A stretch of DNA of 64,000 nt, from the NCBI GenBank assembly GCA_965178125.1, contig OZ237743.1, forward strand, positions 558,001 to 622,000, read 5' to 3'. The notes under the pieces are model-generated. The model was not told the origin of the DNA. It saw only the letters and a list, made by a program, of their open reading frames with translations, and searched no databases. Both the position numbers and the translations under genes were made by a program. The first letter of the stretch is position 1, and each line of letters opens with the position of its first letter. This document shows, one piece after another, positions 2 to 64,000 of this stretch. Origin of the DNA: Bilabrum cf. latius. Lineage: Eukaryota.

Positions 2-3000
2 ATGTTGCCCACCCAGCTGCCGTCCGCCGACACAGGTGATGTCCAGCTGCAGCTGAGTGGTCTCCCGACGGGGGCTGCTGCTGCCAACTTGTCAGTCTCG
101 TTCGGGTCCAGAGAGTGCCGCGTCCTGTCGCTGTCACCGGCAGGTCTCGTGACCTGCGAGCTGATCCGCGCACTTCCATTGCAGATGCCTCAGACCGCGG
201 TGCTACCCTTGGTGTACGTGTCCAACTGGGGATACGCACAGGTCGATGAAACCGATGTTGGGGGAGGTCTTGACACTGGCTTCCGGATCGACGGCCTATC
301 TGCATCCTCCGGCGGGATGGCTGGCGGCGCCACGGTGACCATCACCGGCCATGGGTTTGGGTCATCGGTGACTGCAAATGATGTGCAGTTCCGCAGCTCT
401 GGAAACAACGAGACCGGAACTATCACGATCGGCTGCGACGTCCAGAACGTGAGCGACGCGCAAATCGTGTGTCAAACTCGGAGCGTGGCTCCAGCTCTTG
501 CAGCCTCAGCTGGTAGAAGCACTGATGCGCAGCTTTCAGCGGACCTTTCGGGCGAATGGGTCGTGTCGAGAAACGGCATTCAAGCCCAGTCAGCATGCGG
601 TGGTTCGGCAACGGAGGGCCCTTGCAGCTATACGTTCCGAGCCAGTGAGACGCCGCAGATCCACGGCGTTGTCTTCAACGCCACGGGCATGAAGCTGACT
701 GTAACGGGATCAGGATTCAGTGTCTCTGCTGGTAGTATGACCGTCAGCGTTGGCGAGGAGGAGTGTGCGTTGCTCGCTTCGCCTCGTGCGTTGGGCGACT
801 CTAGCTCGCTGGAGTGTCTGGTCCCTGCTGTTCCAGCCGGAACATACCCAGTTCGAGTGCGAGTCGAAGGCAAAGGCTTCGCAAATGCGTCCTCGACTAG
901 TCCTCCCGAGATCATCGTGCCTCTGCTGGTGACCAGCATCCAGCCGTCAACCGGCTCTAGCCAGGGCGGGCAGCGCGTGGTTGTCCACGGCTCCGGCTTT
1001 GCCACCGGTCCTCGTGCAGGCGAGCTCAACGTCGTTCAGTTCATCGGGAGCGAGCTCGGGAGTTCCAGCACCAAGGCCGCCCGGGTGCTTGTGCAAGGGG
1101 GCGACGCGCCCACCAGCACGCGCCTAGTGATTGTGACCCCGGCATTCAACAACGCGCCGGGTCCCATGTCTGCCGACGTCCGAGTGAGGGTGCTATCCGA
1201 CTCGAGCCAAGGCTCATCAGCGGATGGGGTGCAGCAGGAGTGGCAGGAAGCCATGGTCTCACGGGCGCACACAACGGATGTGATTGACACGGCTGCAACG
1301 CCGCATCTAGAGGGCGTCACGCCTGAAAACGGGGAGGATGGTACGGCCATCACGCTCGCAGGGGCTGGGTTTGAGTCCACCATGCCTGCAGGGAGCAGCG
1401 TGTCAGTGGGCGGTGCATCTTGCAACGTGACAGCTTGGAGCGACACGAGCATTTCGTGCTCGCTGCGGCAAGTCAGAGCCGGGGTCCACCTGCCTAAGGT
1501 CACCGTGGGGGGGAAGGGCCTTGCGTTTCCACTCGATATTGTCACGTTCACCGCGTCGCATGCTGTCACTGGCATGGACGGTGCTGCGACGGGGTACGGC
1601 GGCGGCGCTACTGTCGAGCTGCGTGGCAAGGGCTTCCCCGCAGTGACACGAGCTGAAGCGAGCGCCGCCTACGCCCTGAGAGACGAGCTCATCGCCCAGG
1701 GCCGTCCTTTCGCAGCCGCCGTCGAGCCGCTTCCCAGCGTCGACGTATGCGGCCAATCGTGCGAGGTCATCGAAAGCACGTATAATGCAATTTCGTGCAA
1801 GGCACCGGCCTTGCTGAACGCGCAGGCCCTCTCGCAATTCAATGCCGAGGTGCCAAGGGTGCTGACTGTGCAGGGGGAATTCGCGGATGGCGAGCTGCTA
1901 GAGGAATCTATGAGCAGCCCAAGCAACGCGATGGACGGCGATGTCGCCACAACGGCTGCATCCAATTCTGCCGGCTGCCACATCGGGATGGACCTAGGGC
2001 AGAATCAAGAGGCTGTGCTGACTCGATTCGCGTGGTATCCCGATTTCTGGAAGGCAGCAGACACGCGCGGCGCAGTCGTGGAAGGCAGCAACGACGGCAG
2101 CTCATGGACTGCGCTAGCAGCCGTGGACGATGATGCGCAGGTGCTGGAGGGCTGGAACCACATCGATGTCCTCAATGGCCCGGAGGGCCGGCAATAGAAC
2201 GACCTGGGCGCCGAGGACGGCTACAGGTACCTCCGGTACCGCGCAACGAAGGGTCATTGTCGCGTCAACGAACTGGAATTCATTGGTATCGTTCGGCACA
2301 CCTCGCAGGGCGCGTGCGATGTGAAAGCAAGCCTGCCTGCCGGCACCGCGGCGAGCCAGCGACTAGAGCTAGACTTGAGCGGGCAAGGCACGGTGCAGTA
2401 CAGCAGGGAACTCACGCCAACGTTTCACGCCATCGAGCCAGTGCAAGGCTCCGCTCTCGGCGGGACCAATATAACTATCAGGGGGGAAGGTTTCGGGACC
2501 GACTCTACCGCAGCTGACGTTGCAGTTCACCTGAACGGGGTCCCATGCAAAGTATTTCGTGTGACTGACACGGCCGTCCAGTGCACGACAGGACCAAGAG
2601 ACAGGATTCGAGAACCTTCGGTGGATGTTCTGGTGGCCGGCCGAGGCCTGGCAATCGGAAACTCGACCGTGTATTTCAGGTACCTGGACCTCTGGAGCGC
2701 CCGCACAACGTGGGCCGGCAACGAGCCCCCGGTGGAGGGAGACACGGTGATCATCCCCGAGGGGCAGGCGGTGCTCCTGGACATTAGCCCGCCCCGCCTC
2801 TTCTTGATCCTCGTGCAGGGCGAGCTGGTCTTTGACCGCAAGGACGGGCTGCACCTGCAGTCGACGTACATCTGGGTGCACGGCGGGCATTTCCAGATCG
2901 GAGAGGAGGACAACCCGTTCACCAACAAGGCCACCGTCACATTGCATGGAGACCGCTGGAGCGACATCGAGCTGCCGGGAATCGGCGCCAAGACGCTCTC

Positions 3001-6000
3001 GGTGTCAGACCGCAACACCCGCAACGTGATCGTGCCCCACCGCCAGCGGGCCATTCTGGAGATCCACGGCGAGCCGCGCAAGAGGTCCTGGACCAGGCTG
3101 GGCGCCACGAGCGAGGCCGGATCGGACGTGATCGAGCTGCAGGAACCCGTGGACTGGCGTGTGGGCGACAGGCTCTTCGTGACCTCCTCGTCCGGCGACT
3201 ACACCCACCAGGAGGATGTCGCGGTCGTCGAGGTGCTCTCACCCACTCGCCTGAGGGTACACCCACCCTTCACGCGGTAGCACAGGCACCAAATCTTTGA
3301 CGGCGGGCCTTACGGACACTCGGATTCGGATCTTTCGGCGGCTGTGGGCCTCGAGACGAGGAACGTGGTGATCCAGGGATCGGGGTCCGAGCTCACGCAC
3401 GCGACGCAGCTGTTCGGTGGCCACACCATGGCCATGGGAGGTGGGATCTACCGCATTGAGAACGCAGAGGTGCGCAGGGCGGGTCAAGCTGGCATATTGG
3501 GGCGGTATCCCACGCATACTCACATGGCCGGCGCCCAGGCCAAGTACCACTACGTCAAGTCGCTGGCCGTGCACGACACCAACCAGAGGTGCGCCACCAT
3601 CCACGGCAGCAAGTACTACACTGTGTTCTCCATCGCTTGCACTCGCGTGAGGGGCCACAGCGTCTTTGTGGAGGACGGTGCCGAGGAGTGGAACGTGATC
3701 GACGAGAACCTCGTGTCTCGCACGGTCAAGATCTTCAACGGGCTCAAGGGCGACCTGAAGCCGGCGTCGTTCTGGACCGCATCCCCAAAGAACATCTGGA
3801 AGAATAACTTTGCTGCTGGTGGGTCGAACGACGGTGCGTGGGTAGAGTTGCCATCGCATCCGCACGGCCCCAGCTACTCGCTCAATCTGTGCCCGCAGCA
3901 CGACAGGCTCGGGCAGTTCATCAACAACACCGCGACCGCCAACGGGGTCCACGGGCTGCGCATCTACCCGTCCTATGTCCCATGGAAGAACCCTTGCAAC
4001 TGGCAGGAGGGGCCTCCTGATATGTACGAGACGTTTGCCAACCTGACCGCGTTCCGCAACGGTGGCAACGGCGTCTTCAACAAGATCGGGGGTGCCATCA
4101 ACATCAAGCACAGCAAGCTGATGGGCAACTCGATGGAGGAGGAGCGCAGAAGGACTCTTGTTGACGTGTACGGCCCTCCCCTGCACCAGCCCAACTCGGA
4201 AGGAAATCTCTACGTGCGCGATCCGGACGCGCCGCTAGATGACAGCGTGGTAGACGACAACGTGGCTCTCTTCGCCCCCCAGGACGAGTACTACTACGGC
4301 AAGGACCTGACCTTCGTGGGGTACGGCAGCGGAGGGGCCATCGCGGGGTGCGCCAAGTGCGACTCTGAGATCAACAAGAAGCAGGGCGGGTACACGTTCC
4401 GGTTCTCGGGGCTCCGATTCGTGTCGTCAGCAAAGCGGGTGCGCTTCACCATGCCGTACAAGTAGATCTTCCAGGACGATGACGGCAGCCTGACTGGCAC
4501 TGCCGGCGGCTGGGCGACTGCCTACCGGGCGTTCAACGTGTGGCCTGGACAGTGCGAGAGGAGGGAGGGCGACGAGTTTGACGGCGGGATCGTGTGCGGT
4601 AGCTCTGTCAAGGTGAGGCGCATCGCGGTGGATGGATTCAGGCCCGACGCCCTGCAGGATCAGATGCTCGCGCTGACCGTCAGGCGGGGCACCCAAGACG
4701 AGAGCTGGGACGTGCAAGAGTTTGACACCAAAACCGAGTACGGGTGGGTGAGCCCGGTGGTGACCACCAAGCACTACGACCTGTCCTTCCGTCGCTTCGA
4801 CAACGACCGTCCCCTGAACATCGACCTGGACTGGGTCCGACTCAAGCTGTCGGACCCGGCGTACGTCGATTCCGATGCGGATGACGAGTGGGTCACGCTA
4901 GCCCTGAACCGCACCTACTATGCTCACCACATCCGAGTGCGCATGCCCTTCGACGATGAGCACCAGACGGTGGACCCCGGCATGGACGGATACCTCGAGC
5001 AGAACCCCTCCCGTGCCGCGTACGCAGAGGACAGGAGCAAGTACTGGGAGAGGCCTCCCATCGGGGCGTGGGATGGCAATGTGTTCGGCCGGGAGCGGCT
5101 TCCCATCCCAACGGATGACATGGGCACTGGTTTTTACAACCAGTCCTCCAACACCTGGACCGTAGTGCTGAACAACCGGAACGTAACCGAATCAAGCGAA
5201 ACGCACCACGACTCGAAGGGTGACTGGAACCCTCACCGCCACACCAAGCACAGGATTGAGGCAAAGGCGATGCAGTGTCCGCCAGAAGGATGCGATGATC
5301 CCACGGTCATCAACGTGGAGGGAGAAGACAACTGGAGCTCCTACTTTGCGGGCAACGGTACTCGGGACGACCTGGTTGTCCCCCCGGGCCTCCGCCTCAT
5401 CTTCGACATGAGCGAATCGCCCGTGTACAGGCAGGTCCGGGTGGAGGGCGAGGTCGTGTTCCTCAACGATGGGAGCTCCAGGAAGCTGAACTGCGAGCAC
5501 CTTTTAATCTTTGGCAGGGTCGTCGTGGGCACTGAGGACGAGCCGTGGAAGGAGGGCAGCCAGGCCGAGATCCAGCTGCACTCGCTTCGAGGAGAGGTGG
5601 ATGACGGCGCTGTTGTGGACAACGACATCTACCTGGACGACAAGGTCATCTTTGTGGCAGGTGAGCTGCTCATGCACGGGCAGAGCCGGCTGGCGAACTG
5701 GGCCAGGCTGGCAGTCACGGCAGAGGCAGGAAATTCGTCGATCGTCTTGGACCGAAACACCGACTTGCAGCCCGGTGACAGGCTGTCCATCACTCCAACC
5801 GAATGGCCGGGGGCAGGGTCAGACCCGCTCGAGACCGAAGAAGCTGTGGTGGAGTCTGTCGGCAGCGACGGCCGGGCAATCGTGCTCGAGAAGCCCCTAG
5901 AGTACCGCCATTTCGCAGGTGAGGTCGAGTCGGGGTCGTCGCAGACGGTTGCCCTCCGTGCCGCGGTGGGCCTTCTGACCCGCAACGTGAGGATCACTGG

Positions 6001-9000
6001 AAATATGGAGCCCGATGGCGCGGATGGACTCAGGGACACGTTCGGCGGCCACATAGTCGTTTCTGAGATGTACGGTGCCCGCAACCCAGTCACTGGCATG
6101 AGGGGCACGTTCCAGGGGCGCGTGGACCTGCACTCTGTGGAGTTGGCAGAGCTCGGCCAGGGTGGAATGGAGCACTCCGCGCTGCTACTGCAGTTTGCTC
6201 CTTGGCGCACGGAGACGCCGGACAACCCCATCCAGACTCTGGAAGGTTGCAGCATGCACAGCATGCACAACTACGTGGTCAAGGGAGAGGGTCTCAGGAA
6301 CCTCGTGGCCAAGGACAACGTGTTTGCAAGCATCGTGAAAGGTGGCATCTACCTGGACGACAAGTCCGTGAACGCGACGGTCGACGGAAACCTCGTGTCT
6401 GGGCTCTTCCGAGCTGCAGACGAGACGACGAGGCTGGCACGGAACCGTGCCGCGTTCTTCATCGATGTGGAGCCGCGCAGCCTGCGAGGCAACGTGGCTG
6501 GCGGGATCTACGACACGGGCTTCACCCTTCGGCCGACTCGATGCGAGCGACCGTTCGAGTCGGTGGGCGCCGATGCGATTCGGGGCAACGAGGCGTTCGC
6601 GGGCAAGATCGGGTTCTTTGTTCTGTCCACGCGGAGCATGGAGGAAGACAAGTGCGTTTAGCTGCTGGACCAGCTAGCGTGGAAACAGGCGCACGTGGGA
6701 GTTCTCACCGTGGACCAGACGGCGCATTTCAGGCTGGATCGAATCACCGTGTCGGACAGCCACATTGGCTTCTCTCCCAATTTCAGGCGGGGGGGGAGCA
6801 TCAAGAGTTCCTACGTCGTGGTCCAGAACTCTCGATTCGTCGGCGTGTCGGACGCGAACGCGTGCGACGCCTTTAGGGAGTGCCACGCCGCGGGGGAGGG
6901 CGACGCGTGGGGCAGCAAGTGCAACTCCGTGCTGGGCTCCGGTTTCCTGACCGCGGGCATTCTCACTGCCCAGTTCACTAACAGGGGCAAGACGTGCACC
7001 CACGACGACGAGGTCGCGGTGTGCGAGCCGTCCAACACCCCGACCCGCATGTGCGCCATGCCGTGGGAGAGGCGGTACGGGCTGCCCTCCACGAGGCATG
7101 CCGAGTTCCACGTGCTCGACACGAGCTTCGTTGGGTTCGGGTCCGGGTCGAAGACGTGCGGCAATGACGCGTCTCAGCACACGAAGGCCATCGTCAGTAA
7201 CCCGTCCCAGGTAGACTTCTTCCCGCCCATGAAGCTGCGAGGCATTGACTGGCACGACACGGAGCACGCCGCCAAGTTCCATTTCTTCAAGCGCAGTGGC
7301 GAGACCAAGTAGCTGTGCGTCGACCAGGGATGCGACTCGTTCGGGCAGGTGTTCGTCACCGACCTGGACGGATCCACAGTGTCGAGCAAGAGAGCCGGGG
7401 CACACGTGCTCTCGGGGTGGGATCCGGGACACGCCGTCTCGGCTCCGGCCTGCGCGGGGGTGTCCGAGTGGCGGGGCATCGAGTGCGGCGCCGGTGACAC
7501 TCCGCCCGGTGCCTCGGCCAAGTCGTACCTCAAGCTTGTCCCGGCCAGCTTCGACAACCTTGATAGGGACAGGGGCTTCAGGCTGATCGGTCCCGTACAG
7601 GTGCAGCGGGAGGCGGCGCCCTCTGGAGAGTTCCGCAACACGTCAGCGGTGGGCCCGATTGCGGACCCTTGCGCCTTGCGGTTCCCGTTCAGCCAGTACC
7701 CCCACGTGCTGGAGACGGGTGTGACGAACAGGGTGCGGTTCGGGGGGACCCTCCCGGGCACCCTTCGCGCGGGGTACTTCTCGTCCGACCCCAACGACGT
7801 CAGCATCGTCAAGCTGTTCACGCAGAGGCCGAACGCCATCGAGGTGTTCTACAACGGGAGGCTGGTGGCGCCCGTCGCAGGCGACGCGCTCCCCACCCTC
7901 GCCGATCCAGCGGGCTCCAACAAGTTCGATCCCCAGTCCAGGCACCTCTTCCTTGTCATGAGGGGGGGCGATCCAGGGGCAGAGTACCTGATCCGGAGAC
8001 GATCCTCGGTACAGCTGGACCTGACGCTGGCCGTGTCTGTGGACGAATTCCAGGGCGACAACGTGGTGCAGAACCTGGCCACCCTGCTGTCCATCCCAGC
8101 GGATCGGATCAAGGTGGTCAGCGTGGAGGCCGGGTCCGCGAGGATTGCCGTGGAGATTTTGGACGAGGCCGAGTCCACTCTGGACCAGGGTGCCACCGTG
8201 CAGCAGGTGGGCCGGCTGGTCCAAGTGGGCGCCAGCATCAAAGAGGCGCTCACCGGAGGCCAGCTGGACCTGGGATACCCGGTCGAAGACGCTGAGGTCG
8301 GCATATCCAGGCCGGCGCTTGAGCCGCCTCCGTCGGATGAGGCCATGACGAGCGAGAGGGGAACCGTGCTGCCGCCTTCAAACCCCGAGGTGGACCAGCT
8401 GCTGCAGTCAGTCATGTCCAACGGATTCACCGACCTCGCGGCGCCGGCGGTTCCGCTTTTTGCGGGCGAGAACATCACGTACAACAACGTGACGATCCAG
8501 GGATACGTGGACACCAACTTGGACGACGTGTCTGACGCGGTCGGGGTGCCAGTACCCCTTGCGGCCGATGCACCGCCGGTTCCCGGCCGCAACACGACCA
8601 ACCGCGTCATTGTCCCCAGGGGTGGCGACGATGGGAGTTCTGGCGACGATGGGGGCGATGACGGCCTGCCTATGGCTGCGATCGTGGGCATCGCCGTGGG
8701 AGCCGCGGTTGCCCTGGCTGCTGGTGTGGCCGTTGTGCTCGTGTGCAAGGCAGGCAAGGACTAGAGGGAGACAGCCCCTTCAAATGGGACCAAGAAGGGA
8801 GATAATGGCACCATGTCGACAAAAGGGAGCAAGTACCTCGTGGGCTCCAATGCCAGTGCCAGTGCTTACGCCAACAGTACGCTCGCCGCGAGAGCAGCTG
8901 CCAACCCGCAGCTCGCGACAGTGCCACCGCCGCAGGCCTCAGGGACACCACCACCGGCAGATTGCGCCCGTCACGGATCTCGAGTGCACCCTGCCGGCGA

Positions 9001-9289
9001 GATCGTGGAATCGGGCGGCAAGGCGGCATTCGTTGGCCAAAAGGACGAGTTCCGAGGAGAGAATCCGGGACTGGGCCCCAGGGCTGTGGGCATGGCCGGG
9101 CAGTTCGCGGGGCGCAGCCGGGGGATCAGCGATGCCGCGCCGCGTGACGCTGCCCTCGTGACGGGTTTGGACGCCTATAGGGCGGGAGGCGGCGGGCAGA
9201 GGCCCCACCCAGGCCGTGCAGCGTCTCGCCCGTTGAAGGTGCGTACCGGCGGACCAGGTTCATCTGGTCGCCCCGCTTGGAAGGCTTGA
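2..9289 (+). CDS. Fibrocystin-L / PKHD1L1-like large type I membrane protein (IPT/TIG repeats, two G8 domains, parallel beta-helix, C-terminal TM); 5' end probably outside the window; TAG read as sense
   Basis: ORFs 2-2197, 2321-3280, 3344-4465, 4538-6661, 6695-7312, 7349-8764 and 8813-9289 share one frame, separated only by TAG (2195, 3278, 4463, 6659, 7310, 8762); ends TGA 9287-9289. IPT motifs (GGTNITIRGEGFG, GGATVTITGHGFG), G8-like segments (WSARTTWAGNEPPVEGDTVIIPEGQAVLLD; VRVEGEVVF), VGLLTRNVRI, TM AAIVGIAVGAAVALAAGVAVVLV. Confidence 0.85.
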
Positions 9290-9811: not shown

Positions 9812-10352
9812 TCGCAACGCGATTACGCTGGGAGAGACAGTGGCAGGCAAGAAACGCGGTAGAAATACACAAAACCGACAACTAGTCGAGCAGTGCATCT
9901 GATGGAGGCAGCTGGGCCGCACGCGGTTCGAGATTTTATGCAAATATATGGCTAGGAATTTGTCTATCTCGGAATTTCTCCGCCAGATGCATGGCAGAGG
10001 GGAAATCTGGCGTTGCTTCGGGTACCGGCTCTCGGTTTTATTTTGCCCTCGGGTATGCGGTTGTAACCGATAAAACGATGAACGTTCACGAACATCGCCG
10101 AAGCGCGTGCCCACCGGTGCGATCCCTGCACGTATAATTTCTTTGATAGGAGAGCACAATCATCTTGCTTCTAAAGTAAATCCATATAACGTAATATTTG
10201 GGCCAAATATACTGTCTAATCATCCAGTTGTTTGAGTGAGAATTGCTTTGAGCGGACATGTTCTGGCGAAAATATTGATGGGGCCATTGTCATGCTGCGG
10301 CTTTCCGAACCCACTAGCTCTCCCTTTTATACGTGCAGGCATAAATTGCCGA

Positions 10353-17315: not shown

Positions 17316-17494
17316 ATGAATGTTGATTGATAATTGGCTCGCGCTTTCTAGCTGCTTGCTTATACTAAAGTACAGCTTAACTGCACACTTTGTCACTTTG
17401 GCGGTGAACCAGCAGCACTCGTCACTTCGAACTTCAAATCCGCCTGATCGTCGAGGCAAACACAATCCTCCAGTCGTTAAACTGCGAAGCTGCG

Positions 17495-24166: not shown

Positions 24167-24448
24167 CGCATGCAGCATATACTAGGAAGTATTGGTGCCT
24201 GTGCGGCTCAGTGCAAATTGATGCAGCCTATTGCCATGTTTGTTGGTCACCACCTGGTAGCTGTGTCCAACAGACTAGACCAATTATATTTCCACTATAT
24301 GTAAGTTCACCCGCACAGACTTCGTACAGCACATTAAAGTGCAAATTGCCATCGTCACTGTTTGCGACCACGCCCTGCGACCTTCGGCGGTCGCAGCCTC
24401 TGGTGCCGTTTTGATCACAAACAAGCTACTTCCAGCAACGTAGCCATC

Positions 24449-27730: not shown

Positions 27731-27900
27731 CCATTTGCTTCTATTGAACATTGTACAGGTCTTATTTCCAAATGCATTCTGTAGATACCACTCAACTTGC
27801 AACCGAGCGGTTTGTGAATTATAACGTGTAGTGTATCAAAAAATCGGTTTTATCGGCTGGGAAAGTCAACAATTGAATCATATCATCTCGGGGGTACATA

Positions 27901-43795: not shown

Positions 43796-43990
43796 CCCGC
43801 TGCTGTAGGGTGACTTTGTATCAAATTAAGTTAAGCACTGAATACTACGGGACAAAGTATGCTCTCATCGTGCTACATTATTGAGTTTGTGCTAACGCCT
43901 ATTCGTTGTATGCTAACGAACGTTCGGCACAACGAGCGAACCGGTGGTGACGATACAACCCCTGCTTTTTCCAAGCGTAAATTAGAGTCC

Positions 43991-54000: not shown

Positions 54001-57000
54001 GTGGCTGCACGGGAGAAGCACAGCCCCAAGGGAAGAGGAATCGTCACCGCAGAGTTTGTCGCACCCCCAACGGAAGCTCCCCGCAAGTCTTCTGACCTCT
54101 TTTCTTCCGAGGACGAGGACGCAAGCGGGAGCAGCAGAGCTCGTGACGGCTCCGTTGGCTCCATGCCCAGTCCGACGCTCGGCCCGAGGGCACCCCCCAG
54201 TCCGTCGAATGCGAGCGGGAGGCCCTTCACAGCGTTTTCAGCGAGTCGAAGCAACTTGACAATCCCCAACGGAAATTCAGACGTCCGCGGCCGATCGCGC
54301 CCTGCTGATAGCGGCACTCAATCCAGCAGCCGGGATCGGCACGGCAAAGCAGCAGCACCGGCTGTGGCTCTTCGCGATAGCGTCACCCCCAATGAGTCGT
54401 AGTTCGATGATGTTGACCAGCGATCAATCCCCTCCAATAAAGAGCGTCACAGCCGATCGGCTCGCAGCGCTGCCGGCAACTCTGTGACGTTCGACTTTGA
54501 CGGGTTCAGGGTCGCTGCAGGAACGCCTGAGGGCGACGAGAGGTTGCAGCAGGCATCGAGTCAAGTAGGCAGCGGTGAGCTGCCTTCCATTGGAGGGTCG
54601 GCGTTGGAGTCGCTTCGACCAGGCAGCCGGCAGGGTGGCCAGTGGGAGGCTCGCAGCTCCAGTCGTTTGTCATCGTCCAGAAAAGGCCTCAGGATCTCCA
54701 CGGAGGGCAGCAGCGACGCGGACGGCGACGAGGACGTGGTGCCAGCTGCTGGTCGAGGAACCGCAGTCGCTGCTGCTGCGGCAAAAGCACAGCTCCTGTC
54801 TCCAATGAATGCGGCTGCCGCCGTGCTGGACGACGACGATGCCGTGAGCTCCGCATTAGGGCGCCCTGGCACGCACGAGCACCAGCAGCAAGCTGGTACC
54901 TTGCTTCGGTCCTCAACGTCTGTCGGCACGCCCCTCACTCCAGCTGCTGACGGCCATCTGTTCCCCATGACAAGCCCTATGGCTAACAGCGTGCGACCAG
55001 GAAGCAGTTCCTCATCCGTCCGGTCCATGCTCGGTGCTAGCGGCATGGTGGAAGGGGGATGGCGTCCTGAGACTGGCGGCTCCATGCGGAGCACGATAGA
55101 CAACAAGCTACTCCGCAGCATGTTGAAGAAATCCGGCCACAGGCTTCAGACTCCGCAAGAGGCGGCGCTGCTGCGTCAGACGGATGATGCGAGGCTGGGT
55201 GGGGTGGAACGCGCGCGCTCGATCAGCTCCAGAGGCAGCCAAGGGGGCTGGGTGGGCCGCAGCGCCTCCCCCTCTCGCTCTGCAGGGTCCCCTTCCATGG
55301 ACGGCCATTCTAATTCCGACGGAACCTCTCACAGAGCCCACACGCCACTGCCGTTGTCGCCATCTGGAAGTGCCGAACCGTCCCATCCGGACGTCGAATA
55401 CACCAGAGCGAATGTTGGTCAGCACCCCGGTGAAGCACGGCCGACTCGAGCGCCGCACCACCAGGCAGCCGGGCCCATGCCATCCCTTCACACCCTCCCA
55501 TCCCCCGCGGGTGGATCGAGGGGAGATGCCCCTGCCACGGAGACGGGTGGGATGAGGACGTTCAGCTACAGCGAGCAGTCGCTGCAGTCGCGGGAGGACG
55601 AGACCCCAGCTAGGCACGGATCGAAGCTTCGATCTATGGCACCGCCGGGCCAGCGCAGTCGCGAATCGTTGCCACCGCCCGGTGAGCAGTGGAGGTGGCA
55701 CGGGCCGCTGCCTGGCGAGGCGCTGGAGCAGAGCGGGCTGGTCCCCCGGCAATCGCTGCTCGACGCGACGGAGCAGAGCAAGCTGGTGGAGGAAAAGCAG
55801 AAGATCTCGAGGACTCACGGCCCCATCGGGGCGGGCGGCAAGGCGTTTGCCGAGCACCACGTCGGGAGCACCATGCAGGCGTCGAGGATTAAATTGGACG
55901 AGACGGGATTCGATGGATCTCGACCCTCGGCCGCCGGCAGGCCAAGCCTCGCGCGTGCGCTGTCGCCTGCCCTATATAGCGCCGATGTGGAGGGAGGCAA
56001 GCCACCCCCACGGGCTTCGGGTCACCTGGCGTACGGGGATGACGACGAGCACGATGATGACCACCAGCTCAAGTCCATGAGTCTAAACCTGAGGACAGAC
56101 CCGACCAGGGTGCCGCCGTCGGCGCACGTGCCCGACCGTCACCTCAGGGCCCTAGCCGCCGCAGCGAGGGCGCAGCGGCGGGGCGACGAGGAAGATCAGA
56201 CTGTTCGAGCTCTCATGCGGACCAAGCAGGTGGACGGCTACCGGGAGCAAGCGAGACTAGGAGGTGCCGTTCCTTCTGGATACGCGGCGGACGGCATGTC
56301 TCGGCGGCACCACGACAAGAAGAGGTTCAAGCAGACCAGCAGTGGCAGCGGCGGCGGAATCGGAAGTGGAGGTAGGCTAGCCACCAGCCTGCGGTCATCA
56401 GGCACTTCGGCCGAGTCTCCCGCCGCGCGAGACTTGTGGGACAACGCATCGGCCGAGGGAGACGACTCGAGCTCCTCAGACGAGGACCGAGAGGTGCCAA
56501 CCTTTTCCATGCGCAGGCGCAGGGCGGCAGGGCACGGTGGCAGCGGTGCAGCAACCAGCAGCAGCACGTCGCTCGAGTCAAAGACAGCGCCGAGCCAGAC
56601 CAGATCAGACAAGGGACAGAAGTCCACCAGAACCGCGCGCGGACCACGGCACGAGAGCAAGGAGCAAGGCGAGGACACGTGGGCGGGCAGGGGCCGAGGG
56701 CCCGTGAGCGTCATCGTGGAAAACGGTCCCATCGCGCTGGACGTCTCGCTGGCCGCCGAGGCGGAGCGCCACGCCCTCAGGGAACAACGAGAGGCAGGAA
56801 TCGCGACTAGGAGGCGCCAGAGCGGCGCTGCCACCGAGCTGTCCGAATCGGCTACCCGACGGGACGACAGGCACGTGCCGGATGCGCCCAGGGGAACAAC
56901 GGAGGGCAGCGCGGCGCACCGTCGAGCCGCGTTGTCCGCCGGTCTATCGACCAAAGACGCCCCCGTCGGGTCGGGCGGGGCCGTGCGCGCCGTGGCACGG

Positions 57001-58161
57001 GCCATGGCGGCAGCTGCAGCTCACGGCTCGGCATCGATGGCGCGCGGGGCCGCGGGCGGCTTGCAGCAGCACCGCCGGAATCAGGCGGCCGCAGCTCAGC
57101 TGGCCATGCAGCGGCGGGCGATGGCTCTGCAGCGGCGAACAGGCGGCAGTTCTACTAGTGGCAATGGCAGAGGATACACGAAGTCTGGTCGCAGGCCGGG
57201 CCATGCAATGCTGGATGCCTCCAGCTTCGAGACGAGCGCCGCCGTTGCCAGTGCGTTCCGCAGCGGCGCCGACGGCAGGGCAGGGGACCGCACGGTAGCC
57301 GCTGCATTTGACGACCGAGGGGCGGTACGGCCTGCGGGCAGTCACCGCGGTGGTAGAGGTGCTATGGGTGGGCTGGGTAGGCTGGCGGACCCGAGCGGGA
57401 CGGGAGTGTCCCTGAGGCCCAGCACGGTGGGGCACGTTGGCAGGGTGCTGCGGGGACGGAACTCCGCCGAGCCTGCGCGCCGGAGTGACGAGTGGAGCGG
57501 CGGGGTGGAGGCCGCCGAGGCCTTGCGAAGGGCAAGGCATGCGGCTCTGTCCAACGTGCTAAGGAGGGAAGGGGTGCGGCCGTCGAGCGCCATTGGTGAC
57601 GGTCGCAATGCGGACGCCGGGATGAGGAAACAGCCCCAGCCCTACGCGAGCGTGCTGGCACAAAACGCGATCCGGGAGGCGGGGGCCACGGCGGCATGGC
57701 AGGGGGGCGGGCACGCCGACGGTTCCATCAGCGGGCAGCGGGCGGTGGCCAGCGCCTTCGACGACCCCATACCCGCGCCGCACCTTGGCTCGCTCAGGGC
57801 AGCCACGCGAAGGGTGGGTCTGGCGGCTGGTCCCGCGGGGTCTAGGGTGCAGCGCCTTGCAGAGGAAGCGGCGCTCCATGGACGACCGCTGCGGGAGGCG
57901 CTGCGAGCAGCCGACGCGTACGAGGCGGTTTCGGTGGCGACCCGCAGCACCCTGCGGTCCGCGGGCGGCGGGTCTGTGCTGGGTGGTGTGGAGGAGGCAC
58001 GCGGAGCGCTGCAGGCGGCCGCAAGGGCTGGCCTCTCTGCCAGCCGTTCCGCTGTGGCGCTGCCTTCGAGGCAGAAGCTGGGCGGGTAGTCGGGTGGCGG
58101 CGGCAGCAGAGGCAAGTCGCGCGCGAGAATGCGGCGGACCAGGCTGGGCTACATGGCGTGA
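48058..58161 (+). CDS. Giant Kelch-repeat protein with very long Ser/Arg/Gly/Ala-rich disordered C-terminus (~3340 aa); exons 48058-48092 and 48180-58161; TAG read as sense
   Basis: One frame over 48181-58161 with about 18 TAGs and no TAA/TGA until TGA 58159. Kelch motifs VGPFLFIFGG, ARSSAAMCAVGRTLFVMGG, DLWTFD, RRGHSM, LVIFGG..LNDLHMYD, ARSGHSAFVHDGMLWIFGG..NDLW. First exon inferred from an 87-nt GTAAG...GCAG intron (48093-48179). Confidence 0.82.
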
Positions 58162-58206: not shown

Positions 58207-58692
58207 TCAGAAACCTCCCATTCGCCCGTCGTCACCAGAGCCTTGCTGCTGCGCCTTGAGGGCCGCCTGCTGGACGGCGTCGGCCTGCGAGAGAGGAACG
58301 AAAGTTGATCGTTGCAAGAACATGCAGTGATGCCAAGACATCGTTATGACCAAACCCAACGATTCACGATCGGTAAAGGCCTCACGGCAACCTGGAATGT
58401 GGACATGTACGCTCCGTTGCATGCTTGCAAACAGGTCTGCTGCGAGAAATCCAGAACGCCGCCACTGGCCGCCGTGGGCACGCACTTCTTGAAGCAAACG
58501 CTGACAGCTTCTTCTTGCAGCTGTTGCAGCAGCATCATCTGCATCTGTCCTGCCGCCTGCGATCACGCTAGGGTGGTGGGAGCGGTCTTGCGTGCCGTCG
58601 AGACAAGTGCGGAGATTCAGCGGCATCATGCAATCAATACAAAAGCGTACCTGCTGGATTTTTGCCTGCATTCCTGAGCCTGACGAAGCCAT
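58207..58692 (-). CDS. Small Tim family mitochondrial intermembrane-space chaperone (Tim8/9/10/13-type, twin CX3C); exons 58692-58651, 58556-58386, 58284-58207
   Basis: Spliced product MASSGSGMQAKIQQAAGQMQMMLLQQLQEEAVSVCFKKC...QQTCLQACNGAYMSTFQVAADAV...; two GT-AG introns (second donor could instead be 58391); ends TGA. Confidence 0.8.
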   Translation of the reverse strand: MASSGSGMQAKIQQVRFCIDCMMPLNLRTCLDGTQDRSHHPSVIAGGRTDADDAAATAARRSCQRLLQEVRAHGGQWRRSGFLAADLFASMQRSVHVHIPGCREAFTDRESLGLVITMSWHHCMFLQRSTFVPLSQADAVQQAALKAQQQGSGDDGRMGGF

Positions 58693-58839: not shown

Positions 58840-60132
58840 TCATTCAAACAATTCATCCTCGTCATCGTACTCATCCTCCGGGTCGGACTCCTCTGCCTGC
58901 CTCTGCATCCGAGCCGCTTCCCGCGCCGCCTTCGCCTCTGCCTCTTTCTGCGCCGCCTCCCTTCGCACCCGAGCCGCTTCCTGTGCCCTCACGTCCACCT
59001 GAGGAGCAGCGGTGCCTTTTCCTTCAGCTGCACCACCGGCACCAGCACCGCTCTGCCCAACAACTCCAGAGCCCGAAGGCCCACCCACTGGCGCGCCGCC
59101 AGCGCTGCCAGAGGCAAGTGCTTTCGGGCGAGCGTCCTCGGGCTCGCGCAGACGGAGCACCGCACGAATCGATTCCCGCATTTCATCGGCCTTCACAGCC
59201 TCATCGAAGGAAGCTCCCATACTAAAACCTGTGCCGAATCCGAATCCACCTCTTGTTGATCGCGGCCCGCCCTCTCGGCTGTTCGAACCGCCTAGGAGCA
59301 GGTCGTCAGACTCGGCTGCGTCTCCTCCTCCTAATGTTCCTGCTGCTGCAGCTGGACCATTGTCGGCGACCAGAGACCACCCGCCATCCGCCCAGTCATC
59401 GTCGTCCAGGTCGTCTTCGCCGTCGTCATCACCATCGCTTTCTACGACTCTCCCGGCTTTCACTGCAGTTCCAGCTCCTGCACCGCCCGTGATGGGTGTA
59501 GCAACAGCAAGAGAAGGGGTACTGGGAACAGCAGGCTCGGTTATTTCCATCCTGCGACGTTTCTTGTCCTGCTAGTCTTCGGTGCCATCCTCTTCCATTG
59601 GCTCTGACCCGGCCAGCGGGCCACACATGACCGATAGCTCCTCAAACTGCTGCATCAATCCCTCCAATACATGCTCAGATCCTATGCCGGGGAGTGGGAG
59701 CCTCTCTCTTGCTCCTTGCTTGGCGACGTCTTGCTGGCCCTTGGTCGCGGTCTGCATAATCTTGGCCAGTATCGCGTCGGCACCCTCCGCTAGCAGAATC
59801 TGCCGCTTCCGCGTAAGATGTAGCTTGGCATCGGCTGCCTCCCACGTCTGGGCGATTTCCTTATGGCCGGCCACGAGCAGCACAAGGCGAGCAATCCGCG
59901 AATACTGGTGTGCAACAGGGCCAATCGCCACGGCCTGCTTGAAATTCTGCGGAATGGACGATGGATGGTAGCCAGCCTTTCTACAGGCCATCATCATGAT
60001 TGATACTTCTATCTCAGTAGCCCAATCCCACCCCGCAAGGTTTCGGGTTCGCAGACTAGCGATCTCGGCCAGTTTTCCGAGAAACGATTGCCACTCGAAC
60101 TCCAACCCTTTCGATGCAGAATTTGAAGCCAT
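58840..60132 (-). CDS. Hypothetical protein (~430 aa) with acidic tracts, basic KKRRR motif and C-terminal coiled coil; TAG read as sense
   Basis: ORFs 60150-59572 and 59550-58840 share a frame across TAG 59574-59572; ends TGA. First in-frame ATG is 60132; an upstream exon cannot be excluded. Confidence 0.65.
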
Positions 60133-60364
60133 TGCCCAACCTTCAGTCAAATATAGTCATGCCTCTGCGGGCCTGCTGTAGAATGATCTGTCTACAGCTG
60201 CCGCCAGCGATGGTGGCACTATCGTGCAGTGAGCCAGCCGGAACAAGCGGCCACCATCGAGGATATGGATGTTCTGGTTGACTGGTTGTGGTGGACATTA
60301 TTGCTGTTGTGAACGAACAGACGACGTGGGTAGACCATGCAAATCAGCACGTGTTTTGTATCCA

Positions 60365-63300
60365 TCAAACAGCAGACCGACCCGCCCCCGCGGCGGCCTA
60401 CTGTTTCACCAGCCGCTTCACCCTCGCTATCTCCCTCTGCCGAGCCGCCTCCGCATCGGCCGCGGCGCTCGCGAACAGCGCCCTCGCCGATCCGTCGCCG
60501 GGAGCGGCCTGCGCCCCAGACCACCACAGTCCGACGGACGGCATGACCAGCGCACCATCCCCCTCACCCCCGTCACCGTCCGCTGGCCCCTCGCTGCTCG
60601 CAATGCTGCGCACCAGGACCGCCCGATCTCTTGCGTCCAGGTGTCGGTGCCGGAGACGCAGACCCACCGACATTGGAGCACCAGTACCAGTACCAGCACC
60701 AGCACCAGCACAAGCACCAGCACCAGCACCAGCACCAGCACCAGCACCAGCACCAGCACCAGCACCAGCACCAGCACCAGCACCAGCACCAGCACCAGCA
60801 CCAGCACCAGCACCAGCACCAGCACCAGCACCAGCACCAGCACCAGCACCAGCACCAGCACCAGCACCAGCACCAGCACCAGCACCAGCACCAGCACCAG
60901 CACCAGCACCAGCACCAGCACCAGCACCAGCACCAGCACCAGCACCAGCACCAGCACCAGCACCAGCACCAGCACCAGCACCAGCACCAGCACCAGCACC
61001 ATCTTCCAAGCCATCCTCGCCTGGATTGGCCATTGCTTCAATGAGAGCTGCGTGTGTGGCTCTGCCGATACCAGCACCCGCACGCAGACTACCATCGGCT
61101 GCCCTGCCAGTCCTCATCCCCCCGCCAGCCCCCGGCTGTGCCGCAGCCGCAGCCACCCTGGGTGCATCGGCCCAGTCGGCTTCCCCGTCTTCTTCCTCCT
61201 CGTCGTCTGACAAGTCATCGTCAGCATCGTCGTCCCCGTCGCCACCACCCCCGGGCATTCCCTCCATGATGCGAGCCCTCATTCTAGCAGCCATAGGTCC
61301 CATGGCCCGCCCCCCCCCCGGGCCCACCGCGCCACCCATGGCCCTCATCATCGCATCCATGCCACCAGCGGGGTGCACGCCACCCCTCGGTCCCCCCCAA
61401 GCCCCCGGAGCCGCTGCTGCAAGCGGGATCTCCAAGCCCCCCTGTCTCGCAATCAGGTGCGTGGACGAGTGCTGCAGTCCTGCGCGCACGACAGAGGGAC
61501 CGGGACCAACGACTCCAAGGAACCGCGCGATATCGCGAACGATCCTGGTGCGCCGGCACACCTGCTGGATCGCAGCCCCAGCCGCCGTGCCACTGCCCCC
61601 TTTGGTGCGACCACCGTCGATACCTCTGCCTCTGCCTGATGCGCCTCGCATGGCCGACACGCAGCCCCACGTCACCAGCTGCTAGAGAGCCGCCCTCCGA
61701 CTCAGCAACTCAACGGCTCTCTGCGCCGCCGCGGTGCTGGCGCGCTGACCCGACTGCCTGCCGAGCGGTGTCTGCAGCAGCCACAGCCCCGCAGGGTCCA
61801 CGCCACTCATCACGCCCCCGCGCGCGATGGCCTCCCAAGCCCGCGCACCCCTACCGTCACCGACACCGTCACCGTCACCGACGGAGAGGCTGCCCACCGC
61901 GCTGCCCTGGTGGAAGCTCACCACACGGACGGGGCAGTCCCAGGAGCCCCGCAGCCGGCGGAGGGACGCCTCGGCCGCCCGCCGCCCCGCAGCGCACTCG
62001 TCACACTGTGCCAGGACCAGGGACCGGAGCCTGGGCTGCAGCTCGGCCAGGGCCAGGATCTCGGCCTTGGCGCCCAGCGGGGGCACAGAGGACATGGAGA
62101 GCTCCGCCAGCATCCACTTGGGGGCGTGCAGGGGGGAGGGTCCCACCGGCGACATGGCCTCGCTGGGGAACACCATGGCGCGGAGGTCCTTGGATCCGGG
62201 TCTCAGCGCCGCATGGTCCCTGTGGCGGCCCCTGCCCCCTGCAGAGCCGTCCCGCCTGGATCCCGTCCATGCCGCCCCCGGGGCATCGGCGCCCGCCCCG
62301 CGAGCGGGCCGTGGCGCGGCGTTGGCAGCCGCCTGCCAGTCCGGGTCGAAGCCCCCGGGGCACGACCCCAGGGAACAGCCCTGCTCCATGGACAACAGCC
62401 CCGGGCAGCACGTTAGGCCCGCCCACGCCCCCCTCGCGGGGTCGGCGTCCCCCCCCATGGGCACCCCCGAGGGCCCAACCCCTCCCCAGCTGCCGCGGAT
62501 GGGGGCGGACGGGGGTCCCAGCGGCGCGTTAGCACCCTGAGGGGCCTCTACCCCCGGGGTGCCGTCCTTGGCCTCGCCGTCTCTCCAGACCTCGGGCTCG
62601 GACAGCCAAGCCAGGAGGGCGGGAGGCAGCAGCGGCGCCGACTGCGACCGTCCCAGGGCCACGCCCCAGCCGGCCATGGCACCGACCCCCGCGGCGGCGG
62701 GACCCACGGACACGTGCCGCAGCGACCCTCGGCGGATCCCGGCCTGCATGGCCAGCGTGCTGGGCATGCCGTCCACGTGCATGGCGAGGAGCTGCGGCAC
62801 CCTCGCTCCGAATGCAAGGGCCGGCCCTTGCGCAGCAGACGGGGACAGCACGGGCAGCCCTACGCACTCGAGCCCGGCCAGCGGGTGCGCCAGCATGAGT
62901 GCCACATCGTCCGCGCTGCCGTCCACGATGGACCCGTCGCCCGAAGACACAGACGAAGAAAAGGGTGCTGTCCGACCCGCCGAGGCCCCGCGTCCGTGGT
63001 AGGGAACAACGCTGGGCATGCGGGCCCGCATCAGCTCGCTGACAGCCACCAGATCCACCGGTTCGGCCTCCGTCGCCGTCCCGCCGTCGCAGCGGAAGGC
63101 CCTCAGGTGGGGCGCAGAGGCCAGAGAACACCGCCGCAGCCCGTACCACGACAGCCTCGGGTTGCCGCTAAGGTCCAAGGCAAGCAGCGTTGAGGAGCCC
63201 AGGGAGGACTGCAGCATCTCTTCCGTCAGCATTACGTGCTCGTGCACGGGCGCACCACCCTCGCCATCGTCGTCAACCTCTTCATTGTTGCGGTACTTGA

Positions 63301-64000
63301 CCCCGCACGCGAGCGCCAGCGCCTCGGCGGCCCCACTGGGCAGCGAGTTCCGGGCTAGGGACAGCGCCCGCAGCCCCCCGCAGCCGGCCATCACCCCGCA
63401 CCACGCCTCCAGCTCAGGGTGAGTCGCCCGCGCCTCGACCAGCTCTGCGTCGGCCGCTCTCACCTTGAAGGGTGCGGCAACTCCAGCCTGGTCTGCCTTG
63501 TCCCAAGGGGCTCCTTCTTCGCCTGCACCTGTGGCATAGTCCTCCTCGCCTTCCTCTTTCTCCTATTGATGCCGTTCGTCCGCGGCTCGATCGCTGCCGG
63601 GGGCCCCTAGAGCCACAGCCTCCGCCAGGGCGGCTTCCACGCCGGAGCCATCTGCGAGAGAGTGCAGCACACGGTCGTGCGAGGGCGCCGCGGATGCCGC
63701 CACGGCCCCCTTCACACCCCGTGGTGCCGGCAGCAGCCCCGCGAGGTCCAGGGAACGCAGGGACTCCGTTGCGATGCCCCCGTGCCGGAGCGCCTCCGAG
63801 AGCGCGGTCATGGCGCGACCCCACTGCCGGGCACCCTCCGCTCCCGCGCCCCACTGCTTGCAGTCCGTGGGACCCAGCCCGCGACCCCTGGCTGCCTGAA
63901 GTCCCCGCCTGTGCCCCGCTTTGAGCCACAGGCAGAGAGACTCGATCCCAGCCGCGGACAGCCTGCAGTCCCCCGGCCTTGCTATGGACACATCCAGCCA
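60365..64000 (-). CDS. Leucine-rich repeat (RNI/FBXL-like) protein, 5' part outside the window; TAG read as sense
   Basis: ORFs 63991-63563, 63463-61682 and 61675-60398 share a frame across TAGs; first TGA at 60367-60365. LRR motifs LRSLDLAG, LRALSLARNSL, LLALDLSGNPRL, LRSLVLAQC. Confidence 0.75.
60681..61000. repeat. Hexanucleotide microsatellite (CCAGCA)n, ~53 units, encoding (Gly-Ala)n on the minus strand
   Basis: Directly visible, almost perfect array with variant units only at the left edge. Confidence 0.98.

What the first reader, a model, noticed from the sequence alone, without database searches (positions are those of the whole stretch)
2..64000. Non-standard nuclear genetic code: UAG is a sense codon (most likely Gln) throughout the window
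Seen: in 13 of 14 reconstructed genes on both strands, consecutive ORF fragments stay in one frame and are broken only by TAG (about 100 by manual count). Domains run straight through the TAGs, and I found no internal TAA/TGA or frameshift in coding exons. Spliceosomal introns and a small Tim gene show this is eukaryotic nuclear DNA. Known: nuclear stop reassignments nearly always move UAA and UAG together. UAG-only cases I know of are few: the fornicate Iotanema spirale (Gln), a rhizarian (Leu) and some ciliates. Inference: this GC-rich genome with ~90-200 nt introns looks unlike a ciliate (a stramenopile-type flagellate is only a guess), so it may be an independent, undescribed origin of a translation-table-15-like code.
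Basis: partly seen in the sequence, partly recalled or inferred. Interest (0 to 1): 0.97.

Follow-up and report, generated by a model that had tools for sequence, protein, structure and literature searches.

The report
UAG read as glutamine, nuclear genes
This stretch of eukaryotic nuclear DNA comes from an organism that reads the stop codon UAG as the amino acid glutamine while keeping UGA and UAA as stops, a rare kind of genetic-code change.

Summary
In 13 reading frames (18,940 codons from the first ATG) there are 104 in-frame TAG, 0 TAA and 0 TGA. The other two forward frames of the same DNA hold 234 TAG, 103 TAA and 646 TGA. Reading TAG as sense lengthens the longest frames from 1228 aa to 3330, 3095, 2359, 2252 and 1902 aa; reading TAA as sense changes nothing.

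Pfam domains run through the TAGs. Contigs of three runs splice out a 135-nt GT..AG intron, and their listed pieces cover 36 of 44 TAGs laid, those pieces with no differing letter.

TAG means Gln. One TAG sits in a column that is Q in 70 of 71 homologues. Log-odds over 11 columns give Q +9.6 bits, next best R -5.8. In relatives 83-96% identical, 6 of 7 TAG sites are Q.

A 54%-identical relative in two metagenomes has the same code. Twelve frames end in TGA and one in TAA.

No tRNA or eRF1 could be examined, because no genome is held. The organism stays unplaced and I found no prior report. The code type is known; the lineage is probably new.

The parts
2..9289 (+). Fibrocystin-L-like gene (TIG, G8 and CEMIP beta-helix domains), open at its 5' end. 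It has 6 in-frame TAG and ends in TGA.
   Evidence: Pfam. Homologues, with 47 of 51 having 10 or fewer residues beyond the query's C-end. The TAG at aa 1488 is Q in the three homologues P0119, P0120 and P0123. The TAG at aa 2220 is Q in 20 of 51 homologues, the commonest residue.
10236..17315 (+). DUF1800 + DUF1501 fusion gene with 8 in-frame TAG, ending in TGA.
   Evidence: Pfam. The TAG at aa 978 of the query is Q in 70 of 71 homologues. 57 of 71 homologues have 10 or fewer residues beyond the query's C-end.
17408..24166 (+). Long frame of 2252 aa with no known family. It has 23 in-frame TAG and ends in TGA.
24338..27730 (+). Multi-exon protein kinase gene. The last-exon frame 25736-27730 carries 3 TAG, one of them inside a Q/H-rich run. 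The exon structure was not verified.
   Evidence: exon-like frames with kinase motifs read by eye. (Pkinase C-end, E 7e-5, below Pfam's cut-off).
27877..29709 (+). Phospholipase B gene with 1 TAG at 28456 and an intron at 28937-29071 (GT..AG). It ends in TGA.
   Evidence: Pfam E 4.6e-114. The intron is skipped by contigs of X5, X6 and X7 but not X1.
30515..33655 (-). Polysaccharide lyase family 8 gene. TAGs lie at 33269, 32852, 32660, 32384, 32183 and 31976. It ends in TGA.
   Evidence: Pfam. In fragments of a relative about 93% identical, 4 of 4 covered TAG are Q. Orthologue in L001. Contigs of X5 and X6 cover 5 of the TAGs in pieces listed with 0 other letters.
34673..37939 (+). SRCR-domain membrane protein gene with 4 TAG, ending in TGA.
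   Evidence: Pfam. Contigs of X5 and X7 cover 3 of the 4 TAG.
38117..43825 (-). Ankyrin-repeat protein gene with 25 in-frame TAG. It is the only frame ending in TAA.
   Evidence: Pfam. One 5772-nt X5 contig covers 38103-43874 with 0 other letters and 0 gaps. An 83%-identical fragment has Q, Q and L at three TAG sites.
43835..46030 (+). ZIP metal transporter, paralogue 1, with 4 TAG, ending in TGA.
   Evidence: Pfam.
46100..47911 (+). ZIP metal transporter, paralogue 2. It has 4 TAG in the frame (2 after the first ATG) and ends in TGA.
   Evidence: Pfam. An X7 contig covers 46208-47758 unspliced. Two of its TAG face GAG (Glu) in paralogue 1, read by eye.
48169..58161 (+). Giant Kelch-repeat protein gene of 3330 aa with 18 TAG, ending in TGA.
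   Evidence: Pfam.
58344..58562 (-). Small Tim (Tim10/DDP) gene, the one gene without TAG.
   Evidence: Pfam E 6.4e-11.
58840..60156 (-). Acidic protein of unknown family with 1 TAG, ending in TGA.
60365..64000 (-). Frame of 1211 aa of unknown family, open at the window's end. It has 3 TAG, ends in TGA, and holds the (AGCACC)54 array.

Best explanation
The window is nuclear DNA of a GC-rich (about 62%) eukaryote whose cytoplasmic translation reads UAG as glutamine. UGA (mainly) and UAA remain the stop codons, which is the pattern of NCBI translation table 15. UAG behaves as a minor synonymous Gln codon: about 11.5% of Gln codons here and about 27% in a lower-GC relative. It is rarest in the most codon-biased gene. 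Shown: TAG is in frame in real genes, it survives into spliced transcripts, and it corresponds to Gln in homologues. Shown also: TAA and TGA never occur in frame, and TGA-defined ends coincide with homologue C-termini. Inferred from how other UAG/UAR-to-Gln lineages work, not shown here: a tRNA-Gln with anticodon CUA, or an efficient near-cognate tRNA-Gln, decodes UAG, and eRF1 has lost or weakened UAG recognition while keeping UAA and UGA.
For: Frames. 104 TAG against 0 TAA and 0 TGA in 18,940 in-frame codons; off-frame counts are 234, 103 and 646. Frame lengths rise only when TAG is made sense. Pfam domains lie on both sides of the TAGs.

RNA. Contigs of X5, X6 and X7 (two studies) skip 28937-29071 (GT..AG), while the X1 contig is continuous there. 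X5 depth is 110-138 over the phospholipase B gene and 0.96 in the next intergenic bin. 36 of 44 in-frame TAG in 27800-47799 lie inside the listed pieces. The pieces that hold them are listed with 0 other letters, and no listed differing letter falls in a TAG.

Amino acid, from distant homologues. Q in 70 of 71 homologues at one TAG column. Log-odds over the 11 TAG columns with at least 50% occupancy: Q +9.6 bits, R -5.8, T -8.5, K -10.7, E -12.9.

Amino acid, from close relatives. In fragments about 93% identical, 4 of 4 covered TAG are Q. In an 83%-identical fragment the three TAG sites read Q, Q and L. In the 54% orthologue pair, TAG faces CAG 5 times, TAG 2, GAG 2, GCx 2, AGC 1 and ACG 1.

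Stops. 12 of 13 frames end in TGA and 1 in TAA. Homologues with 10 or fewer residues beyond the query's end number 57 of 71, 47 of 51 and 124 of 144, and homology continues after the last TAG.

Relative. L001 frames reach at most 289 aa under the standard code and 1079 and 969 aa with TAG sense. L002, from a second metagenome, has the same TAGs.
Against: No tRNA gene lies in the window or in L001-L003. No genome is held, so tRNA-Gln(CUA) and eRF1 are unexamined and the mechanism is inference.

The tool labels X5-X7 as RNA only as a guess, and marks X5 'probably DNA'. I call them transcripts on the strength of the splice joint, the gene-bounded contigs and the depth pattern. 15 differing letters were not shown, so I cannot say that no unlisted difference touches one of the 8 uncovered TAGs.

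Not every comparison gives Q. Two TAG face GAG in the 54% orthologue. Two TAG in ZIP paralogue 2 face Glu in paralogue 1 (by eye). One TAG faces Leu. Of 19 TAG columns in the distant-homologue alignments, 8 were too gapped to score, and among the 11 scored several favour other residues, for example Y/F/L at PL8 aa 418 and S at G8 aa 2437.

UAA as a stop rests on one gene end plus its absence in frame. Whether UAG ever terminates cannot be told from 14 genes.
Confidence: 0.88

Rival explanations
1. UAG is ambiguous: it is read as Gln inside genes but also terminates some genes depending on context, as in ciliates with context-dependent codes.
For: Nothing direct. Only 13 gene ends were seen. 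A frame defined with TAG as sense cannot reveal a terminal TAG upstream of the TGA.
Against: For the three genes with many homologues, the TGA-defined end coincides with homologue C-termini and homology continues after the last TAG. The PL8 orthologues of the window, of the relative about 93% identical (P0200) and of L001 end at the same aligned position. In the codes of that kind known to me, all three stops are reassigned (passage of PMC11687900), whereas TAA and TGA are never in frame here.
Confidence: 0.07
2. Both UAA and UAG encode Gln (the common UAR=Gln code, NCBI table 6), and TAA is merely rare because the genome is GC-rich.
For: TAA is the rarest stop triplet in the window (325 on both strands against 847 TAG and 1514 TGA).
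Against: There are 0 in-frame TAA in 18,940 codons, against about 32 expected if TAA:TAG followed CAA:CAG (190:610). Off-frame TAA is common (103 in two frames). Making TAA sense lengthens no frame. One gene ends in TAA, with the X5 contig ending 14 nt beyond it.
Confidence: 0.02
3. UAG is sense but encodes another amino acid (Glu, Leu, Ser, Lys or Tyr), as in other reassigned lineages.
For: TAG faces GAG twice in the 54% orthologue and twice between the ZIP paralogues (by eye). It faces Leu once. A neighbour-composition test could not separate K, Q and E.
Against: Log-odds are Q +9.6 bits against E -12.9, S -15.0, and L below the eight listed. One column is invariant Q, 70 of 71. 6 of 7 sites are Q in relatives 83-96% identical. 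Q-to-E is a common replacement, and TAG-to-GAG or TAG-to-TTG are single-base changes.
Confidence: 0.03
4. The TAGs are not translated: they are pseudogene lesions or assembly errors, lie in introns, or are edited in RNA.
For: None found.
Against: Only one of the three stop triplets occurs in frame. Independent assemblies of four runs agree letter for letter. Spliced contigs keep the TAGs. Relatives in two further metagenomes show the same pattern, with two TAG at identical positions.
Confidence: 0.01

Closest known systems
Iotanema spirale (Metamonada: Fornicata) nuclear code: UAG = Gln, UAA kept as stop (Panek et al. 2017, PMC5304391; abstract read)
   Same: UAG alone is reassigned to Gln, and UAA and UGA remain stops. 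It is a non-ciliate.
   Different: Iotanema is an anaerobic fornicate whose primary stop is UAA (abstract). Here TGA ends 12 of 13 frames, the DNA is about 62% GC, and a small Tim gene is present. The homologue hits found here are from marine algae and choanoflagellates. No relationship to fornicates was seen, but none was formally tested.
Ciliates with UAG-only to Gln: Hartmannula sinica, Trochilia petrani (two origins in Phyllopharyngea) and Protocruzia tuzeti; NCBI table 15 (McGowan et al. 2024, PMC11687900; passages read)
   Same: The same codon table. In-frame UAG falls at conserved Gln positions.
   Different: In those ciliates 93.5-100% of C-terminal alignments end at UAA (passage); here TGA dominates. 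The window has long, nearly intron-free, GC-rich genes. I did not test ciliate membership with marker genes, because none is in the window.
UAR = Gln codes (NCBI table 6: many ciliates, ulvophycean green algae, Hexamita, Streblomastix, Amoeboaphelidium; passage of PMC11687900)
   Same: A stop codon is captured by Gln, presumably through tRNA-Gln variants.
   Different: In those codes UAA is reassigned together with UAG. Here TAA is never in frame (0 of 18,940 codons).
Other UAG-only reassignments: rhizarian exLh (Leu; PMC5304391, abstract) and Scotinosphaera (Ser; passage of PMC11687900)
   Same: UAG is uncoupled from UAA in a non-ciliate nuclear genome.
   Different: A different amino acid. 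In one search Ser scores -15.0 bits and Leu scores below all eight listed residues.

Membership tests
Nuclear code of NCBI table 15 type (UAG = Gln; UAA and UGA = stop) | In-frame UAG inside conserved protein-coding sequence, while no other stop triplet is in frame. | tested here: met
   104 TAG, 0 TAA and 0 TGA in 18,940 codons. Pfam domains span the TAGs.
Nuclear code of NCBI table 15 type (UAG = Gln; UAA and UGA = stop) | UAG is present in the mature mRNA, neither spliced out nor edited. | tested here: met
   36 of 44 TAG lie inside the listed contig pieces of runs that splice the 135-nt intron, and those pieces have 0 other letters. The RNA nature of these runs is inferred, not on record.
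Nuclear code of NCBI table 15 type (UAG = Gln; UAA and UGA = stop) | UAG positions correspond to Gln in homologues. | tested here: met
   Q in 70 of 71 homologues at one column. Q +9.6 bits over 11 columns, next best -5.8. 6 of 7 sites are Q in close relatives. TAG faces CAG at 5 of 11 non-TAG pairings in the orthologue.
Nuclear code of NCBI table 15 type (UAG = Gln; UAA and UGA = stop) | UGA terminates. | tested here: met
   12 of 13 frames end in TGA. The ends coincide with homologue C-termini.
Nuclear code of NCBI table 15 type (UAG = Gln; UAA and UGA = stop) | UAA terminates and is not sense. | tested here: inconclusive
   Not sense: 0 in frame against about 32 expected. As a terminator there is only one gene end (38117-38119), with a contig ending 14 nt beyond it.
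Nuclear code of NCBI table 15 type (UAG = Gln; UAA and UGA = stop) | UAG never terminates. | tested here: inconclusive
   Three genes with many homologues end at TGA, not TAG. The sample is too small.
Nuclear code of NCBI table 15 type (UAG = Gln; UAA and UGA = stop) | A tRNA-Gln able to read UAG (anticodon CUA) is encoded in the genome. | not testable with these tools
   No tRNA lies in the window or in L001-L003, and no genome is held.
Nuclear code of NCBI table 15 type (UAG = Gln; UAA and UGA = stop) | eRF1 N-domain altered so that UAG is not recognised. | not testable with these tools
UAR = Gln code (NCBI table 6) | UAA in frame at Gln positions. | tested here: not met
   0 in-frame TAA. 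Making TAA sense changes no frame.
Context-dependent codes with all three stops reassigned (Condylostoma and karyorelict type) | UGA and UAA also occur in frame. | tested here: not met
   0 TGA and 0 TAA in frame.
   In one gene tree (DUF1800/1501, FastTree, support values not examined) the query sits with two unnamed proteins next to Triparma strigata and among diatom sequences. The best named hits for PL8 and fibrocystin-L are choanoflagellate transcriptomes. There is no rRNA in the window.

The most novel reading that the evidence does not exclude
This is an independent origin of the UAG=Gln / UAA=stop code, not yet reported. It lies in a GC-rich, non-ciliate protist clade that carries a small Tim gene and has at least three sequence-distinct members: the window organism, a relative about 93% identical, and a relative about 54-83% identical seen in two environmental metagenomes. 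It arose in a genome where TGA, not UAA, is the main stop. In such a genome UAG would not be expected to have been rare before its capture, which bears on how UAG can be uncoupled from UAA.
Probability: 0.45. Interest if true: 0.85.

Novelty: new member of a known kind. Interest (0 to 1): 0.74.

Why it matters
Nuclear stop-codon reassignments are rare. Cases in which UAG changes meaning while UAA does not are rarer still: in the papers I read they are Iotanema, one rhizarian, Scotinosphaera and a few ciliate lineages.

Each new independent case tests whether decoding of UAG and UAA can be separated mechanically, through eRF1 specificity and tRNA-Gln anticodons. A GC-rich, TGA-terminating example is a different background from the UAA-terminating ciliates and Iotanema.

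There is also a practical consequence. Standard-code gene callers shatter this organism's genes. The public protein collections already hold its relatives' PL8 gene as fragments of 67-490 aa broken at TAG. Any annotation, BUSCO score or metagenome binning of this clade is therefore wrong until table 15 is used.

Identical transcripts occur in runs filed under several organism names. The organism may therefore be available for bench work on tRNA, eRF1 and proteomics.

Tried and rejected
Whole genome: none is held. That ruled out genome-wide codon inference, a tRNA-Gln(CUA) search, and finding eRF1 or 18S.

tRNA and Rfam scans: nothing in the window and no tRNA in L001-L003.

The look-up of sequencing runs: no RNA holder listed. 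RNA status of X5-X7 is the tool's guess, and I inferred it from the splice joint.

I did not pursue it.

Neighbour-composition test (which residues cluster around TAG): inconclusive. K, Q and E profiles correlate alike at 0.46, 0.44 and 0.43.

Synteny between the window and L001: none beyond the PL8 gene. The four other L001 frames have no hit in the window, so only one orthologue pair was available.

'Shorter' search with the ankyrin gene: 1 hit among 8000 scored candidates.

L003: an unrelated PL8 homologue with standard-looking frames; uninformative.

Literature for a prior report: six searches and passages of five papers. I found no UAG reassignment in a stramenopile or in any other GC-rich non-ciliate. 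The library lacks most subscription journals and supplements were closed, so this is not proof of absence. One preprint on a diatom culture with a co-occurring dictyochophyte (10.1101/2025.10.10.681168) was checked for genetic-code terms and has none.

Rejected readings: UAR=Gln, UAG=Glu/Leu/Ser, and pseudogenes, editing or introns (see rival explanations).
Full report

The window is 64 kb at about 62% G+C. Under the standard code its longest stop-to-stop frames are 1228, 731 and 731 aa. Reading TAG as sense gives frames of 3330, 3095, 2359, 2252, 1902, 1211, 1088 and 1046 aa. Reading TAA as sense changes nothing, and reading TGA as sense gives at most 1362 aa.

In 13 frames counted from the first ATG (18,940 codons) there are 104 in-frame TAG, 0 TAA and 0 TGA. 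The two other forward frames of the same DNA hold 234 TAG, 103 TAA and 646 TGA. At about 0.02 TAA+TGA per off-frame codon, frames of 1900-3300 codons free of both cannot be chance.

The frames are real genes. Pfam finds TIG, G8 and CEMIP beta-helix (2-9289), DUF1800 plus DUF1501 (10236-17315), and phospholipase B (27877-29709, E 4.6e-114). It also finds PL8 lyase (30515-33655, minus strand), SRCR (34673-37939), ankyrin repeats (38117-43825, minus strand), two ZIP transporters (43835-46030 and 46100-47911), Kelch repeats (48169-58161) and a small Tim (58344-58562, minus strand). Fourteen genes can be counted.

THE TAGs ARE IN THE MESSAGE

One sequencing-run search and one laying of contigs were allowed. 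X1, the likely source DNA, covers the stretch continuously. Contigs of X5, X6 and X7 come from two other studies. They skip 28937-29071 (135 nt, GT..AG) inside the phospholipase B gene. They also begin and end near gene borders: 27881-29796, 30463-33233, 34782-36961 and 38103-43874. X5 depth falls from 110-138 over that gene to 0.96 in the next intergenic bin.

The tool lists these runs as RNA only by guess, and marks X5 'probably DNA'. I read them as transcript assemblies on the grounds above.

Of the 44 in-frame TAG between 27800 and 47799, 36 lie within the listed pieces of these contigs. That includes all 25 of the ankyrin gene, which sit in one 5772-nt contig with 0 other letters and 0 gaps. 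No listed differing letter falls in a TAG. Fifteen differing letters were not displayed by the tool, and 8 TAG are outside the listed pieces.

It also confirms spliceosomal introns, and hence nuclear DNA.

WHICH AMINO ACID

Distant homologues. I used three sets:
- 71 homologues of the DUF1800/1501 protein;
- 51 fibrocystin-L-like proteins, chosen as P0119-P0169 out of the 81 found;
- 144 PL8 lyases, being the 150 listed minus six close-relative fragments.

Of 19 TAG columns, 8 are too gapped to use. At one TAG (SAPD-TAG-LRQRV) 70 of 71 homologues have Q and one has a gap. At fibrocystin aa 1488 the homologues P0119, P0120 and P0123 have Q. At aa 2220 Q is the commonest residue, 20 of 51. Two PL8 columns have Q as the commonest or second commonest residue, 36 and 39 of 144.

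Several columns favour other residues, for example Y/F/L at PL8 aa 418 and S at fibrocystin aa 2437. Summed log-odds over the 11 usable columns are Q +9.6 bits, R -5.8, T -8.5, K -10.7 and E -12.9. Q is the only positive score.

Close relatives. The all-against-all search returned the PL8 gene of a relative about 93% identical as four fragments on one 4620-nt contig, evidently broken by a standard-code gene caller. Their identities are 64/67, 91/96, 137/146 and 449/489. They carry Q at 4 of the 4 window TAG they cover. One fragment ends exactly at the fifth TAG. An 83%-identical ankyrin fragment has Q, Q and L at three TAG sites. That is 6 Q in 7 sites.

A more distant relative. L001 is 13.3 kb of a metagenome contig at 55% G+C. 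Its frames are at most 289 aa under the standard code but 1079 and 969 aa with TAG sense. L002, from another metagenome, repeats the same TAGs.

In the PL8 orthologue pair (484 of 897 aligned residues identical), TAG faces TAG twice, CAG five times, GAG twice, GCx twice, and AGC and ACG once each. Glu also faces TAG twice between the two ZIP paralogues (by eye). Q-to-E is a common replacement and TAG-to-GAG is one base change, so I read these as ordinary substitutions. They are the main counter-signal.

A neighbour-composition test was uninformative.

WHICH CODONS STOP

Twelve of 13 frames end in TGA and one, the ankyrin gene, ends in TAA. For the three genes with many homologues, the TGA-defined end coincides with homologue C-termini. 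Homologues with 10 or fewer residues beyond the query's end number 57 of 71, 47 of 51 and 124 of 144. Alignable sequence continues for 174-486 residues after the last TAG.

If TAA shared TAG's meaning in the ratio CAA:CAG = 190:610, about 32 in-frame TAA would be expected; there are none. After the one terminal TAA the X5 contig ends 14 nt downstream, which is only a weak hint.

So UAA is not Gln. Its role as a terminator rests on one gene. Whether UAG ever terminates cannot be settled with 14 genes.

HOW IT LIKELY WORKS

UAG behaves as a minor synonymous Gln codon. Here it makes up 104 of 904 Gln-type codons, 11.5%. In L001 it makes up 36 of 131, 27%.

It is scarce in the most codon-biased gene. 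Phospholipase B has 1 TAG, 1 CAA and 29 CAG. It is common in weakly biased genes such as the ankyrin gene, with 25 TAG, 41 CAA and 70 CAG.

By analogy with other Gln-capturing lineages I infer two things: a tRNA-Gln that reads UAG, and an eRF1 that no longer recognises UAG but keeps UAA and UGA. Neither could be examined. There is no tRNA in the window or the loci and no genome is held.

WHO IT IS

Unresolved. There is no rRNA in the window.

The DUF1800/1501 protein is at most 42-43% identical to any uninterrupted homologue. In a FastTree tree whose support values I did not examine, it sits with two unnamed proteins beside Triparma strigata and among diatom sequences.

The best named hits of the PL8 and fibrocystin-L genes are choanoflagellate transcriptomes.

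The high G+C, the long and nearly intron-free genes and TGA as the main stop do not resemble the UAA-terminating ciliates described in PMC11687900 (passage). No marker gene was available to test this.

Identical sequence occurs in runs filed under four coded organism names. I made no attempt to decode them.

COMPARISON AND NOVELTY

The table itself is known. UAG=Gln with UAA kept as a stop is reported for Iotanema spirale (PMC5304391, abstract). It is also reported for Protocruzia tuzeti and two phyllopharyngean ciliate lineages (PMC11687900, passages). UAG=Leu occurs in a rhizarian and UAG=Ser in Scotinosphaera (same sources).

Six full-text searches found no such code in a stramenopile or any other GC-rich non-ciliate. 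The library lacks most subscription journals and supplements were closed.

I therefore file this as a new member of a known kind. It is very likely real and probably an independent origin, carried by a small clade that also occurs in environmental metagenomes.

Interest is high for students of code evolution, and there is a practical point for annotation.

Noticed in passing
window 33320-34170: A dispersed high-copy element between the PL8 and SRCR genes. Word depth in DNA run X1 is 2400-5500 against about 24 in the flanks, with many variant letters and loose ends at 34007, 34048 and 34164. Its frames (33221-33931 plus strand, 33379-34119 minus strand) match no Pfam family.
   Followed up: partly
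window 60677-61001: An (AGCACC)54 hexamer array, 98% matches. It lies inside the 60365-64000 minus-strand frame, where it reads as a long Gly-Ala run. Shorter coding microsatellites lie at 23147-23201 and 37457-37542.
   Followed up: no
window 43835-47911: Two tandem ZIP transporter paralogues with nearly identical C-terminal halves. One X7 contig joins 47758 back to 45878, most simply because the paralogues were merged in that assembly.
   Followed up: partly
runs X1-X8: Letter-identical sequence over kilobases occurs in runs filed under four different coded organism names from four studies. This suggests the organism travels with, or is sequenced alongside, other cultured organisms.
   Followed up: no
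proteins P0200, P0203, P0215, P0331, P0212, P0259: Public protein collections hold this clade's PL8 gene only as fragments of 67-490 aa that start or end at TAG positions. Standard-code gene calling has already mis-annotated these organisms.
   Followed up: yes
L001 12300-13262: The last frame of the relative's contig ends in three copies of a 16-residue unit, each closing with TAG then His, read with TAG as X. It may be non-coding repeat DNA rather than a gene.
   Followed up: no
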